Shown here in pieces: positions 13,234 to 15,122 of a stretch of DNA of 52,329 nt (position 1 is the first letter of the stretch; the number at the start of each line of letters is the position of its first letter). The stretch is from Escherichia virus TH53: the sequence record MT446419.1; one strand, written 5' to 3'. Both the position numbers and the translations under genes were made by a program. The notes under the pieces are model-generated. The model did no database searches and was not told the origin of the DNA. It saw nothing but the letters and a program-made list of their open reading frames with translations.

Positions 13234-13262
13234 GTCGTTTGACGAATCAGAGCAGTTCTGAA

Positions 13263-13356: not shown

Positions 13357-13695
13357 ATGGCTAAGATTGTAACCGTAACTCAGTACGAAGCTAACGATGG
13401 TTCCCTGTTCCTGACCGAAGCAGAGTGTAATGCACACGACTTCAAACTGGAAAACGGTGCTAAAATTGAGAAAGCTGCCGAAGCGTACCTGAACACCGTT
13501 GGTGCTATCGACCGTTCTCGCTCCATGCAGAAGAACACCATCGAGCAGTTCCTGGCATTCTACCTGCCGTGGGTTGAAGCTGGTGAGCCGGAAGTTGAGC
13601 GTACTAAGTTCGATACTCCGAAAGAAGCTAAAGTTGCTGACGCAAGTGTTGCCGAAGCTGCCGAAGCTGCGGTTGAAGAAGCTCCGGTATTCTAA
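13357..13695 (+). CDS. acidic, alanine-rich protein
   Basis: Strong RBS, own promoter-like motif, acidic C-terminal tail ending in F. Confidence 0.6.
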   Translation: MAKIVTVTQYEANDGSLFLTEAECNAHDFKLENGAKIEKAAEAYLNTVGAIDRSRSMQKNTIEQFLAFYLPWVEAGEPEVERTKFDTPKEAKVADASVAEAAEAAVEEAPVF

Positions 13696-14851
13696 GTTGC
13701 CGACGGCAAACTTGAGAGACTAAGCTAAATCGATCTGGCATGCACTGGAAGTTTTCCGGTGCTGCCTTGAACCCATTCTGAAAGGAAGAGTGGGCTTCAA
13801 TGAGCATTCTTGTGATTAGAGTTGGGAGGTAGGCCGATGCCCAATCTCGTGGCCCAGACAAGAGTGTTCATTGAAGTTATTTCAATATGGATGTACAGTG
13901 GAATGAGAAGCTTCTCCGATAAGAGGAGTGAAAGTAGCTGGAGGACATGCCCACAGAACTGACCGAGACCCATTACAGTAGTAGCGATTCACTACCGCGA
14001 AACAGTATTGAAATTGGCAACGGTTCATGCGGAAGGGCATCGGTGAAATCTACGTTCAGTACGCGTGGTGAAATGAAGGAGTAGTGTCCTGAGAATTAAC
14101 CCTGTCTGGTTGAATGCCAGAGTCCATATTGAAGTAGTTTTCTGAGTCTTACGACGGGCCTAAACTGCCTGGAGTTATTGCGACTGTTTTATTCATTTAA
14201 AATAAATGCAAATGATTCTGAAATGCGAGTTGCGGCTTAATTAAATTTAAGTCCTCTCCGTGGTCTTCCAATCCCACGTAACCAAATTTGGCGCATTGTG
14301 GCTTCGAGATGTGATTAATAAATCGGAGCAATAATTAATTTGTATTCTGCGATGCAATGCAGGCTTAAGTCCCTCAGTGCGCGTGGGGATGTGACAGAGT
14401 ACAAACTTAATTATGCAGTTGGATATTTCTAGAGGACGGACGAGCACACTGGAATGTCTTCAATTGGTTTAGTGTGAGAAGCTATGCCAATTTGAAACGT
14501 AACTCCTTGAGGAAGTGCTCCTCTGGATTTCCCTCCACACAGGAATCTCAAGCCTGTGGCAGCGACTTCGAAGCTGCACTGCGTAACCTAATTCACCCTA
14601 AAGTGAGTTGCCCTGAGCATGGAAATAAACTGCTCTAACCGATGGTATCTACAAAGGTAGATTAAATCAGGTTGCCTGTTGGTACTTGGGTTCAACACCT
14701 GCTTGCACTCGCAAAGTAGTGCCTCGTACCTGAGATGAAGTGAGTCGGGACCATCAATCCCACGTTATGTCAAAACACAGTAGGCGACTCACGGATTCTA
14801 CAAGCCTCGCAGTTCGGGAAAACCTGCGTTACCAAAACCCTCCTATTCTTT

Positions 14852-14944
14852 GGACGAGTAGCTCAGAAGGTCTGCTCCAGAGCTTAGTCAGGTAGAGCAA
14901 TCTGTTCGACAGATGTGTCGTTGGTTCGAATCCAACCTCGTCCA
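14852..14944 (+). tRNA. tRNA-like element: canonical acceptor stem and T-arm, non-canonical D/anticodon region
   Basis: Seen: acceptor GGACGAG / CTCGTCC, T-arm GTTGG-TTCGAAT-CCAAC, D-arm halves GCTCAG and GGTAGAGC separated by about 24 extra nt, hairpin TCTGT-TCG-ACAGA. I could not fold a standard anticodon arm; isotype undetermined. Confidence 0.5.
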
Positions 14945-15122
14945 CCCACTTTCAACAATAACATGGAGTCCTCATGGACATTGATGCACTAGACAATTTG
15001 GACTTCGGTGCTGCCGAAGAAGCAATTGAAGAACTCAAAAAGAAGCAGGACGAAGAAGCAATCGTTCCTGGAGAAGGCGATAACGATTGTACAAGTGGTG
15101 CATGCGCCATCTAAGGTGAATC

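What the first reader, a model, noticed from the sequence alone, without database searches (positions are those of the whole stretch)
13700..15120. 1.4-kb ORF-free region with a non-canonical tRNA-like element
Compact phage genomes rarely carry this much non-coding DNA. The element at 14852-14944 has a perfect 7-bp acceptor stem and a textbook T-arm, but about 24 extra nt sit between the D-arm halves and I could not fold a standard anticodon arm. The motif CAATCCCACGT recurs upstream (near 14268 and 14759) with partial T-arm-like context. Possibilities are an insertion-containing or long-variable-arm tRNA, a tRNA-like decoy, a cluster of decayed tRNAs or a structured ncRNA.
Basis: partly seen in the sequence, partly recalled or inferred. 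Interest (0 to 1): 0.68.

Follow-up and report, generated by a model that had tools for sequence, protein, structure and literature searches.

The report
Phage RNA mimicking and targeting tmRNA
The "empty" 1.3 kb of this coliphage is a cluster of small structured RNAs; its centrepiece carries a tmRNA-type degradation-tag reading frame but no tRNA-like end, and its 5' leader is antisense to the host's own tmRNA, which suggests that phages reprogram or block the bacterial ribosome-rescue system.

Summary
Window 13696-14973 has no conserved ORF. 14852-14944 is a tRNA-Arg(UCG) gene interrupted by a 21-nt insert in the D-loop. Relatives already annotate it as "tRNA-Arg, may contain an intron".

A ~195-nt RNA lies at 14136-14329. 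It carries a tmRNA-style resume context (AUAAAU-GCA), a 10-codon tag frame (ANDSEMRVAA*) with its stop codon in a hairpin, and two tandem pseudoknots backed by covariation. It has no acceptor stem, normal T-loop or CCA.

Homologues occur in at least 595 phage records: Felix O1-like, Kuttervirus, Chaseviridae, P1 and lambdoid prophages. They are also in 670 of 5426 complete E. coli genomes, and are almost never annotated. All tags are 10 residues, AND…(A/V)A, and under purifying selection.

The conserved 5' leader is antisense to host tmRNA nt ~68-105, which span the resume codon and tag codons 3-6 (45 of 51 distinct leaders, p≤0.01).

My best reading is that this is a tmRNA-derived RNA that docks on host tmRNA and substitutes or blocks its tag template. 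This mechanism is inferred, not shown. I found no description in the searchable literature.

The parts
13696..14973 (+). Non-coding small-RNA island between a 112-aa ORF (13357-13695) and a 46-aa ORF (14974-15114). It lies downstream of the phage-RNAP promoter at about 13261 and has no promoter or terminator of its own.
13802..13869 (+). Module A: an 11-bp closing stem (GAGCATTCTTG/CAAGAGTGTTC) around the conserved core GAUUAG..GGGAGG..GGCCGAUGCCC..GGCCCAGA.
   Evidence: the closing stem is kept by compensatory changes, and the two arms are swapped in L038; the module is present in most Carltongylesvirus members.
13878..14136 (+). Module B: a 259-nt structured RNA with a 15-bp closing stem. 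A T-arm-like hairpin (GUCUGG-UUGAAUG-CCAGA) sits next to the 3' strand of that stem. Presence varies between close relatives.
   Evidence: 64 predicted pairs, 16 with compensatory changes in 5 sequences; found only in the window, Mangalitsa, phiA050, L038 and L052.
14136..14329 (+). tmRNA-like tag RNA, whole element: antisense leader, resume context, tag frame, stop-codon hairpin and two pseudoknots.
14136..14190 (+). Leader antisense to host tmRNA. The blocks are AGTTTTC 14136-14142 (pairs with tmRNA nt 99-105), GTC 14146-14148 (96-98), TTGCGACT 14178-14185 (86-93, which covers the resume codon) and TTTT 14187-14190 (81-84). A lineage-specific 29-nt hairpin insert at 14149-14177 interrupts them.
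   Evidence: with direct reading against the E. coli K-12 ssrA sequence (L132).
14202..14240 (+). Resume context ATAAAT (14202-14207), followed by the tag frame GCA AAT GAT TCT GAA ATG CGA GTT GCG GCT TAA = ANDSEMRVAA* (14208-14240).
   Evidence: Rfam alignments to tmRNA families; 69 synonymous against 20 non-synonymous changes in this frame, compared with 21/88 and 17/67 in the other two frames; the length is always 10 codons plus a stop. ARAGORN reports a resume consensus in the Moogle homologue.
14234..14254 (+). Hairpin like tmRNA helix 5, holding the last tag codon and the stop codon (GGCTTAA-ttaaat-TTAAG(T)CC).
   Evidence: Direct reading. In other lineages an equivalent hairpin shows covariation (helices 1-2).
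14259..14291 (+). Pseudoknot A. The hairpin is 14259-14263/14274-14278. Its loop bases CCAA (14268-14271) pair with TTGG (14288-14291). The first CAATCCCACGT copy lies here.
   Evidence: both helices are 100% paired in 29 diverse sequences, with 3 and 2 pairs showing changes on both sides. P1 keeps both helices with different sequences.
14292..14329 (+). Pseudoknot B. CGCATT (14292-14297) pairs with GATGTG (14308-14313) and crosses the stem 14301-14307/14323-14329. The A-rich loop ATTAATAAA is at 14314-14322.
   Evidence: 99.4% and 97.9% of cells paired, with 3 and 7 covarying pairs. One G.U pair is invariant.
14336..14740 (+). Unresolved non-coding stretch. It contains the hairpin GAGCA-N11-TGCTC (about 14616-14640), which recurs in distant relatives. 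In Mangalitsa part of this stretch is replaced by an imm gene.
   Evidence: folding z-score -3.8.. Only near-identical relatives are available, so covariation has no power here.
14740..14792 (+). Module E: closing stem GTGAGTC/GACTCAC around a T-arm-like hairpin GGGA-CCATCAA-TCCC. It holds the second CAATCCCACGT copy.
   Evidence: the homologue in L038 keeps the stem.
14808..14828 (+). Conserved hairpin CGCAG-loop-CTGCG, followed by TTAYCAAAAC. It is conserved across Chaseviridae genera with a variable loop.
14852..14944 (+). tRNA-Arg(UCG) gene (anticodon 14906-14908) with a 21-nt insert in the D-loop at 14867-14887, flanked by the near-repeat AGCTCAG/AGCTTAG.

Best explanation
The region is an island of small structured RNAs, transcribed from the phage promoter at about 13261 and presumably cut out of a long transcript.

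Its centrepiece (14136-14329) descends from transfer-messenger RNA. It keeps the mRNA-like part: the A-rich frame-setting sequence, a GCA resume codon, a 10-codon tag ending in Ala-Ala, a stop codon in a hairpin, and downstream pseudoknots. It has lost the tRNA-like domain. Instead it has a 5' leader antisense to the host tmRNA around the host's resume codon and first tag codons.

Proposed mechanism (inferred): the leader anneals to the single-stranded resume region of host tmRNA. This masks the host's frame-setting signal and tag codons and tethers the phage tag template next to the host's alanine-charged tRNA-like domain and SmpB. Rescued ribosomes would then add the phage tag ((A)ANDSEMRVAA) instead of ANDENYALAA, or host tagging would at least be blocked.

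**Shown:**
- conservation of the element;
- secondary structure by covariation;
- protein-level selection on the tag frame;
- absence of a recognisable tRNA-like domain in the conserved element;
- antisense homology of the leader to tmRNA.

**Inferred:**
- that the RNA accumulates in infected cells;
- that the leader pairs with tmRNA in vivo;
- that the tag frame is used as a template.

The 14852-14944 element is a separate item: a tRNA-Arg(UCG) gene with a 21-nt D-loop insert. It is conserved in the genus and already annotated in relatives.
For: **tmRNA-like coding part**
- Rfam gives weak but repeated hits to tmRNA families on independent homologues: window E 0.04-0.12, P1 E 0.062 and Kuttervirus pertopsoe E 0.44.
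- ARAGORN reports a resume consensus and the tag ANDNVFLAVA** in the Moogle homologue.
- I found 17 or more distinct tags. All are exactly 10 codons, AND.......*, ending in (A/V)A.
- Among close pairs, changes in the tag frame are 69 synonymous to 20 non-synonymous, against 21/88 and 17/67 in the other frames.

**Structure**
- Pseudoknot A, pseudoknot B and the terminal stem are 98-100% paired in 29 diverse sequences, with 15 covarying pairs between them. No shuffle of 500 reached the observed score, and slid controls drop to 28-50% paired.
- P1 keeps both pseudoknots with different sequences.

**Distribution**
- 113-143 phage records match the window element.
- 595 phage records match the Erwinia phage M7 copy, across Ounavirinae, Ackermannviridae, Chaseviridae and siphophages.
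- 670 of 5426 complete E. coli genomes carry it. In P1-like plasmids it lies between dmt and the tRNA genes; in lambdoid prophages it lies between the Q antiterminator and the holin gene.

**Antisense leader**
- AGUUUUCGUC is the exact reverse complement of E. coli tmRNA nt 96-105. It is a 9-10-nt perfect match in 61 of 80 elements.
- 45 of 51 distinct leaders align to the reverse complement of ssrA at p≤0.01. 48 of 51 alignments end at nt 104/105 and run back to nt 68-86. The sense-strand control stays at background.
- Leaders match host tmRNA better than their own downstream RNA in 45 of 46 cases.
- RNAduplex places every leader colinearly on tmRNA 54/79-106, down to -48 kcal/mol.
- In Ounavirinae a sigma-70 promoter (TTGACA-N17-TATAGT) sits so that transcription would start at the first complementary base.
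Against: - There is no expression, 5'/3' end or interaction data. Everything here is computational.
- In the window itself, complementarity to E. coli tmRNA is split into 3-8-nt blocks by two insertions. Its duplex energy is no better than that of shuffled leaders (z -1.3; alignment p about 0.02).
- The Chaseviridae-type leader is also partly complementary to its own codons 3-6. I saw this by reading the sequence.
- Three Erwinia phages carry three different middle blocks. I could not obtain host ssrA sequences other than E. coli's, so I have no host-phage covariation test.
- No tmRNA system is known to load a template held only by base pairing on its 5' side, so template substitution is a new and unproven step.
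- An RNA that only blocks host tmRNA would explain the leader equally well.
Confidence: 0.5

Rival explanations
1. Pure anti-tmRNA antisense RNA or decoy. The leader pairs with host tmRNA and shuts down or redirects trans-translation, perhaps by inviting RNase III cleavage. The tmRNA-like 3' part only provides stability or binds SmpB, S1 or the ribosome, and the tag frame is never translated.
For: The leader evidence is the same as for the main explanation. No tRNA-like domain is present. A tRNA-like-domain-only tmRNA from mycobacteriophage DS6A is reported to inhibit tmRNA, so phage interference with this system has a precedent (PMC4131195).
Against: The tag frame shows protein-level purifying selection, an invariant 10-codon length, an invariant stop codon and an Ala-Ala or Val-Ala ending across very distant phages. 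A never-translated decoy does not need these.
Confidence: 0.22
2. An autonomous or two-piece tmRNA whose tRNA-like domain is encoded elsewhere. Candidates are a neighbouring stem-closed module with a T-arm, ARAGORN's "permuted tmRNA" arrangement in Felix O1-like phages, or the insert-bearing tRNA at 14852.
For: ARAGORN calls a permuted tmRNA in Moogle, and genome announcements report ssrA in Felix O1 and Moogle (PMC4392139, PMC4319497). The element always sits among tRNA genes or T-arm-bearing modules.
Against: - ARAGORN's 5' tRNA domain lies inside an annotated tRNA-Lys gene, and three real tRNA genes separate the pieces.
- The neighbouring modules differ between phage families.
- In Ounavirinae the element has its own promoter, starting at AGUUUUCG.
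- No G3:U70 acceptor stem with a CCA end was found in the leader, pseudoknots or modules A, B and E, by my reading of the sequences.
- The window's tRNA has A3-U70 and an Arg anticodon.
- tmRNA curators list no enterobacterial phage tmRNA.
Confidence: 0.12
3. Non-functional relics: decayed tRNA or ssrA fragments and recombination scars, or DNA-level mobile inverted-repeat elements that happen to fold.
For: - The modules vary in presence between close relatives.
- Module B is flanked by ATTGAAGT repeats.
- Junction sequences recur.
- T-loop-like motifs are scattered through the region.
Against: The compensatory changes, selection on the tag frame and conservation across phage families that share almost no other DNA are not expected of relics.
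Confidence: 0.05
4. The region encodes small proteins, as annotated in several relatives (hypothetical proteins in Mangalitsa, GJ1, Y2 and others).
For: Depositors annotated short ORFs here. Module A contains a GGGAGG-N7-ATG arrangement.
Against: - None of the ORFs matches a PHROG family.
- Relatives that are 97-98% identical carry frameshifting 1-nt indels in them.
- The GJ1 80-aa ORF is truncated to 54 aa in the window.
- The ATG of module A is followed by a stop after 2 codons in Faunus and is missing in L038.
Confidence: 0.03

Closest known systems
Bacterial tmRNA (SsrA), one-piece form
   Same: It has an A-rich frame-setting sequence with U(-5)A(-4) and a GCA resume codon. The tag is 10 codons, starts AND and ends Ala-Ala. 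The stop codon sits in a hairpin like helix 5, and H-type pseudoknots follow the reading frame. There is nucleotide similarity to the enterobacterial tag region.
   Different: It has no acceptor stem, no G3:U70 pair, no CCA end, no standard T-loop and no pseudoknot 1. It is about 190 nt instead of about 360. It carries a 5' leader antisense to tmRNA itself. ARAGORN and Rfam do not call it.
Two-piece (circularly permuted) tmRNA of alpha- and betaproteobacteria and cyanobacteria
   Same: The template and the aminoacylated end can lie on different RNA molecules held together by base pairing. The best Rfam hits are to these families (tmRNA_permuted, alpha_tmRNA).
   Different: In two-piece tmRNA both pieces come from one gene, and the coding piece still carries the 5' acceptor strand. 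Here no acceptor piece is encoded, and the proposed partner is the host's complete tmRNA.
Mycobacteriophage tmRNAs (Bxz1 group) and the TLD-only tmRNA of phage DS6A
   Same: These are phage-borne derivatives of ssrA. DS6A shows that a partial tmRNA can interfere with the host system (PMC4131195, PMC11915505).
   Different: The Bxz1-type RNAs are complete tmRNAs. DS6A keeps only the tRNA-like domain, whereas this RNA keeps only the mRNA-like domain and adds an antisense leader.
Trans-acting antisense sRNAs and anti-sRNAs of phages and prophages (for example DicF; a dicF-like region lies just upstream of the P1 copy)
   Same: It has a 5'-proximal complementary seed of 7-10 nt, extended by further blocks, directed against a host RNA. 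It is encoded in phage regulatory or tRNA regions.
   Different: The target is tmRNA rather than an mRNA or sRNA. The RNA also carries a conserved, selected reading frame and two pseudoknots. No Hfq site or intrinsic terminator is evident.
tRNA genes with insertions (phage and bacterial group I introns in anticodon loops; archaeal bulge-helix-bulge introns)
   Same: Removing the extra segment from 14852-14944 gives a canonical tRNA-Arg. GJ1 annotators wrote "may contain an intron".
   Different: The insert is 21 nt and lies in the D-loop. That is too short for a self-splicing intron, and E. coli has no splicing endonuclease. The insert varies in sequence and length between relatives.

Membership tests
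tmRNA (SsrA) | tRNA-like domain: a 7-bp acceptor stem with G3:U70 formed by the 5' and 3' ends, and a 3' (A)CCA | tested here: not met
   ARAGORN in tmRNA mode finds nothing in the window or in the phiA050, pertopsoe, Y2, M7 and Felix O1 loci. Reading the 80 aligned elements shows no such stem or CCA end. In Ounavirinae the promoter places the 5' end at AGUUUUCG.
tmRNA (SsrA) | T-arm with a 7-nt T-loop next to the acceptor 3' strand | tested here: not met
   The only candidate, 14259-14278, has a 10-nt loop whose bases pair downstream to form a pseudoknot.
tmRNA (SsrA) | Resume codon with an upstream frame-setting sequence and a short tag ORF ending in hydrophobic Ala-Ala plus a stop codon | tested here: met
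   AUAAAU-GCA and ANDSEMRVAA*. All homologues have 10 codons. Selection acts in this frame.
tmRNA (SsrA) | Pseudoknots flanking the ORF (PK1 upstream, PK2-4 downstream) | tested here: inconclusive
   Two pseudoknots downstream are supported by covariation. No PK1 is present; the antisense leader occupies that position.
tmRNA (SsrA) | Reaches the Rfam gathering score of a tmRNA family | tested here: not met
   Best scores are 21.5 bits (GA 47) and 16.2 bits (GA 50) in the window, and 24.1 bits in P1.
Two-piece tmRNA | A permuted gene: an acceptor piece (T-arm, 3' acceptor strand, CCA) upstream of a coding piece that starts with the 5' acceptor strand | tested here: not met
   The upstream neighbours differ between families: module B, a promoter, a dicF-like terminator or repeat-flanked modules. 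ARAGORN's permuted call in Moogle borrows part of tRNA-Lys.
Trans-acting antisense RNA against tmRNA | Conserved complementarity to the target that exceeds chance and exceeds self-complementarity | tested here: met
   (family level). In the window itself this is weaker: p about 0.02, and 22 of 26 nt in four blocks.
Trans-acting antisense RNA against tmRNA | Physical pairing with the target in vivo, and an effect on the target | not testable with these tools
   This needs RIL-seq or CLASH, compensatory mutations and tagging assays.
tRNA (for 14852-14944) | A cloverleaf recognised by tRNA programs | tested here: not met
   ARAGORN makes no call on the intact window sequence, and Rfam gives 27.9 bits against a threshold of 29, partial match only. 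The feature is met only after the 21 nt are removed. Relatives get conflicting calls of Leu, Ser or none.
tRNA (for 14852-14944) | Conserved tRNA body with U33, a purine at position 37, G18G19, a T-loop and an encoded CCA | tested here: met
   The body is invariant in 9 relatives while the flanks diverge. CCA is encoded in GJ1, ST32, FXie and Mangalitsa, but the window has ACCC.
Intron-containing tRNA | A self-splicing group I intron or a bulge-helix-bulge motif at the insert | tested here: not met
   The insert is 21 nt. No Rfam intron family hit it. It lies in the D-loop.

The most novel reading that the evidence does not exclude
Many enterobacterial phages (Chaseviridae, Felix O1-like, Kuttervirus, P1, lambdoid prophages) encode a "tag-swap" RNA: a tmRNA mRNA-like domain without a tRNA-like domain. 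It base-pairs with the host's tmRNA around the resume codon and makes a non-covalent chimera. Ribosome rescue then proceeds with the host's alanyl-tRNA-like domain and SmpB, but appends a phage-specified tag. This would be RNA-guided reprogramming of trans-translation.
Probability: 0.35. Interest if true: 0.95.

Novelty: new variant of a known kind. Interest (0 to 1): 0.85.

Why it matters
tmRNA-SmpB is the universal bacterial ribosome-rescue and quality-control system. So far, phages are known to carry either complete tmRNAs or, in DS6A, a tRNA-like-domain-only inhibitor.

This would be a widespread, unannotated phage RNA that keeps only the template half of tmRNA and is antisense to the host's tmRNA. 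That would be a new way for viruses to take over host translation quality control. It would change which degradation tag (ClpXP/SspB signal) is put on stalled products during infection, or switch tagging off.

It would also show that a tmRNA template can work in trans. It would give a natural tool for reprogramming tags. It would explain a conserved "empty" region in classical phages such as P1 and Felix O1, in lambdoid prophages, and in about 12% of complete E. coli genomes. Annotation pipelines currently miss it or mislabel it as hypothetical proteins.

Tried and rejected
- **Acceptor stem for the tag RNA.** I looked for one by hand and with RNAalifold and a covariation scan. I tried pairing the 5' GUUUUCG with the 3' tail, a TYMV-like pseudoknotted acceptor, the closing stem of module B, and the prophage T-arm modules. 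None gave a G3:U70 helix or a CCA end.
- **ARAGORN's permuted tmRNA in Moogle.** Rejected as an artefact of neighbouring tRNA genes.
- **Y RNA (YrlA) or other Rfam families for the stem-closed modules.** No hits reached the gathering score in the window or 10 related loci, and the only YrlA hits (E 0.034 and 0.6) overlie ordinary tRNA genes in the P1 and M7 loci.
- **Alternative reading frames and the overlapping AUG (AAAUGCA).** The AUG is replaced by ACG, GUG or CUG in some members, and those frames show no selection.
- **Class II (long variable arm) fold of the tRNA.** Rejected.
- **Host-phage covariation of the leader.** The single genome-contig scan returned mostly chance matches. Only Pseudocitrobacter and Rouxiella were real, and no non-E. 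coli ssrA sequence could be obtained.
- **One wasted search.** Wrong strand coordinates hit the terminase small subunit gene instead.
- **Literature.** Nine full-text searches found only genome announcements that repeat ARAGORN's "ssrA" call. The P1 genome paper (PMC523184) is not held.
Full report
**What the window is.** The window is a Carltongylesvirus (Chaseviridae, phiEcoM-GJ1-like coliphage). Its closest records are about 93-94% identical over the first 12 kb. The flagged region corresponds to a mosaic intergenic stretch. In relatives it carries scattered "hypothetical protein" calls, and in GJ1 a "tRNA-Arg; may contain an intron".

**Checking the observation.**
- The upstream ORF ends at 13695 and the next plausible ORF starts at 14974.
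- ORFs inside are 77 aa or shorter. They have no PHROG family.
- Most are broken by 1-nt indels even in relatives that are 97-98% identical.
- The scans found no sigma-70 promoter or intrinsic terminator.
- The nearest phage-RNAP promoter (consensus ACATTAGTTGGATGTGRA, taken from the GJ1 annotation) is at 13261, upstream of the 112-aa ORF. The region is therefore probably the untranslated continuation of that transcript.

**The tRNA-like element (14852-14944).**
- ARAGORN calls nothing in the window.
- Rfam's tRNA model matches only positions 9-63, at 27.9 bits against a gathering score of 29.
- Removing 21 nt (14867-14887, between the near-repeats AGCTCAG and AGCTTAG) gives a canonical 74-nt tRNA-Arg(UCG). 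It has a GCUC/GAGC D-stem, the D-loop AGUCAGGUA, a 7-nt anticodon loop GU-UCG-AC and a textbook T-arm.
- In nine relatives the tRNA body is invariant while the flanks diverge.
- The insert is the most variable part. The GJ1 type reads GGTTTGCATTGTGCTC, and SA91KD lacks TAGTCA.
- The anticodon triplet differs between phages: UCG, AAG in FXie and CGA in TH29.
- CCA is encoded in several relatives.
- ARAGORN gives conflicting calls for relatives: Leu, Ser or none.
- The SA91KD deletion and the class I variable loop argue against a long-variable-arm fold.

So this is a conserved tRNA gene with an unexplained D-loop expansion. It was already noticed by the GJ1 and ST32 authors. It is not a new object.

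Weak Rfam hits to tmRNA_permuted and alpha_tmRNA at 14091-14295 drew my attention to 14208-14240. That stretch reads GCA AAT GAT TCT GAA ATG CGA GTT GCG GCT TAA, which translates to ANDSEMRVAA*. It is preceded by AAAAUAAAU. The E. coli tmRNA tag is ANDENYALAA.

The stretch around it is conserved far beyond the genus.
- It is found in Aeromonas phiA050, Erwinia Y2 and Faunus, Pantoea phages, Kuttervirus (Ackermannviridae), and Felix O1-like Ounavirinae, where it sits inside their tRNA clusters.
- It is also found in Klebsiella siphophages and in Vibrio and Alteromonas phages. A search with the M7 copy matched 595 phage records.
- 670 of 5426 complete E. coli genomes carry it. In P1-like phage-plasmids it lies between dmt and tRNA-Asn/Thr. 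In lambdoid prophages it lies between the Q antiterminator and the holin gene.
- P1 itself has it (tag ANDDLMMVAA*) in the C1-controlled ban-operon leader. It lies directly after the curated "dicF-like region" and is unannotated.

**The tag frame is under protein-level selection.** I found 17 or more distinct tags. Every one is exactly 10 codons plus a stop, starts AND and ends (A/V)A. Among closely related pairs, substitutions in the tag frame are 69 synonymous to 20 non-synonymous, against 21/88 and 17/67 in the other two frames. The overlapping AUG is not conserved. The frame-setting positions U(-5) and A(-4) upstream of GCA are kept in most members, as in tmRNA. ARAGORN reports a resume consensus in Moogle.

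**Structure.** I aligned 29 diverse sequences and counted pairs.
- The last tag codon and the stop codon lie in a hairpin.
- Pseudoknot A follows: a 5-bp hairpin whose loop bases CCRA pair with UYGG downstream. Both helices are 100% paired, with 3 and 2 pairs changed on both sides.
- Pseudoknot B follows directly. CGCANU pairs with GN'UGUG (99.4% paired, 3 covarying pairs, one invariant G.U) and crosses a variable stem (97.9% paired, 7 of 7 pairs covary). Its A-rich third loop reads AUUAAUAA.
- No shuffle of 500 reached the observed covariation score, and slid controls fall to 28-50% paired.
- P1 keeps both pseudoknots with different sequences.
- In the window the first CAATCCCACGT copy is part of pseudoknot A.

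**No tRNA-like domain.** ARAGORN in tmRNA mode finds nothing in the window or in five homologous loci. Its "permuted tmRNA" in Moogle spans 749 nt, puts the 5' tRNA domain inside an annotated tRNA-Lys gene, and skips three real tRNA genes. This is probably the "ssrA" reported in the Felix O1 and Moogle genome announcements. tmRNA curators list only mycobacteriophages, Bacillus phage G and the TLD-only DS6A as phages with ssrA. In Ounavirinae a good sigma-70 promoter (TTGACA-N17-TATAGT or TAATCT) places the start at AGUUUUCG. That leaves no room for a 5' acceptor strand.

**The leader is antisense to host tmRNA.**
- The most conserved part of the leader, its first 9-10 nt AGUUUUCGU(C), is the exact reverse complement of E. 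coli tmRNA nt 96-105 (GAC GAA AAC U, tag codons 3-6).
- The rest of the leader is colinear with the reverse complement of tmRNA back to nt ~68. Compare the reverse complement of tmRNA, AGUUUUCGUCGUUUGCGACUAUUUUUUGCGGCUUUUUACG, with the prophage and Kuttervirus leader AGUUUUCGUCACGUUAGCGACUUUGCGGGCUUUUUAGAAAC.
- Of 51 distinct leaders, 45 align to the reverse complement of ssrA at p≤0.01 against 300 shuffles. 48 alignments end at nt 104/105. Alignments to the sense strand stay at background.
- Leaders match host tmRNA better than their own downstream sequence in 45 of 46 cases.
- RNAduplex gives -43 to -48 kcal/mol for the prophage and Kuttervirus type (z about -5). Values for Ounavirinae and Chaseviridae are weaker.
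- In the window the complementarity is AGUUUUC[UGA]GUC[29-nt hairpin insert]UUGCGACU[G]UUUU, which covers 22 of the 26 nt of tmRNA 80-105. By itself this is only marginally significant.
- From established knowledge of E. coli tmRNA, nt ~79-107 are the single-stranded stretch between pseudoknot 1 and helix 5. That stretch holds the frame-setting U85/A86 and the resume codon at nt 90.

**How it most likely works (inference).** The RNA anneals to host tmRNA across the resume region. This hides the host's frame-setting signal and first codons, and places the phage's own AUAAAU-GCA template 10-25 nt beyond the duplex, near host pseudoknot 1. Host Ala-tmRNA, SmpB and EF-Tu would still enter stalled ribosomes, but the phage template would be read. 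Selection on the tag frame favours this over a pure inhibitor. The missing tRNA-like domain and the variable neighbours argue against an autonomous or two-piece tmRNA. I put about 0.5 on [quoted passage not shown]. I put about 0.2 on inhibition only, and about 0.1 on an unrecognised partner RNA.

**Other modules in the region.**
- **Module A (13802-13869):** closing stem kept by compensatory changes.
- **Module B (13878-14136):** 64 predicted pairs, 16 of them compensatory.
- **Module E (14740-14792):** a third stem-closed unit.
- **Hairpin 14808-14828:** conserved across Chaseviridae genera with a variable loop.

In temperate phages the tag RNA sits in arrays of similar modules, separated by complementary arms of the form ...GGTAAGAGCATTG[module]CAGTGCTCTTTCC.... 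None of these matches an Rfam family at its gathering score. The stretch 14336-14740 folds better than shuffled sequence (z -3.8). It has only near-identical relatives, so it remains unresolved.

**Novelty and limits.** Nine full-text searches found no description of a TLD-less tmRNA-like or anti-tmRNA phage RNA. Papers in subscription journals could not be searched. All evidence here is computational. Expression, RNA ends, pairing with tmRNA and use of the tag remain to be shown. I could not test whether the leader tracks host tmRNA outside E. coli.

Noticed in passing
window 13871-13878 and 14128-14135 (flanks of module B, 13878-14136): Module B is bracketed by the direct repeat ATTGAAGT and has terminal inverted repeats (TTCAATATGGA/TCCATATTGAA). 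Most Carltongylesvirus genomes lack it, and there module A abuts the tag RNA directly. It looks like a mobile or recombining RNA cassette.
   Followed up: partly
window 13822-13842 (module A core): The conserved GGGAGG-N7-AUG-CCC looks like a ribosome-binding site with a start codon. The ORF behind it is not conserved: it is 2 codons long in Faunus, and L038 has no AUG. It could be a ribosome-binding or decoy motif.
   Followed up: partly
IMG/VR loci L010-L126, for example L041, L088 and L021: In ~40-50-kb temperate phages or siphophages, the tag RNA lies in an array of ~50-70-nt modules. Many have a GAGGGTTCGAATCCCTAC T-arm. The modules are separated by mutually complementary arms (GGTAAGAGCATTG / CAGTGCTCTTTCC). 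The arrangement resembles tRNA-like or Y-RNA-like units or RNase III processing sites. No Rfam family matches.
   Followed up: partly
L139 (phage P1, NC_005856 68788-69100): P1 carries the tag RNA (ANDDLMMVAA*) immediately after its annotated dicF-like region and terminator. It lies in the C1-repressed ban operon leader, before trnA and trnT. The curated P1 record does not annotate it.
   Followed up: yes
window 14906-14908 and alignment A3: The anticodon triplet of the insert-bearing tRNA differs among near-identical phages: UCG in the window and GJ1, AAG in FXie-2024a, CGA in TH29. U33 and A37 stay fixed. The discriminator base also switches between A and G.
   Followed up: partly
window 14415-14600, compared with Mangalitsa (L001 2388-2642): Mangalitsa has a T4-like superinfection immunity (imm) gene where the window and GJ1 have non-coding sequence. 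GJ1 in turn lacks 13801-14122. The island is a hotspot for cassette exchange.
   Followed up: no
window 13745-13756: GGAAGTTTTCCGG repeats the junction plus AGTTTTC start of the tag RNA. It may be a remnant of another copy.
   Followed up: no
whole window: The window is 52329 bases long, the same as phage Mangalitsa's record, but only about 94% identical to it in the region compared. No record in the phage collection was more than 95% identical to the window's first 12 kb (best 93.7%), so the equal length looks like a coincidence.
   Followed up: partly
phage record PP952070.1: "Staphylococcus phage Pel53" (host S. hyicus) is 93-100% identical to this coliphage region. The record probably has a mislabelled host or comes from contamination.
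   Followed up: no
L007 22118-23533 (Felix O1 ORF42): A 471-aa protein annotated as "RNA-binding protein" lies directly upstream of the Felix O1 tRNA and tag-RNA cluster. I did not test whether it is related to Ro60/Rsr or otherwise linked to these RNAs.
   Followed up: no
window 247, 2610, 3449, 7350, 11182, 11323, 12929, 13261, 21324, 41208: These sites match the phage-RNAP promoter consensus (ACATTAGTTGGATGTGRA). None lies inside 13700-15120.
   Followed up: partly
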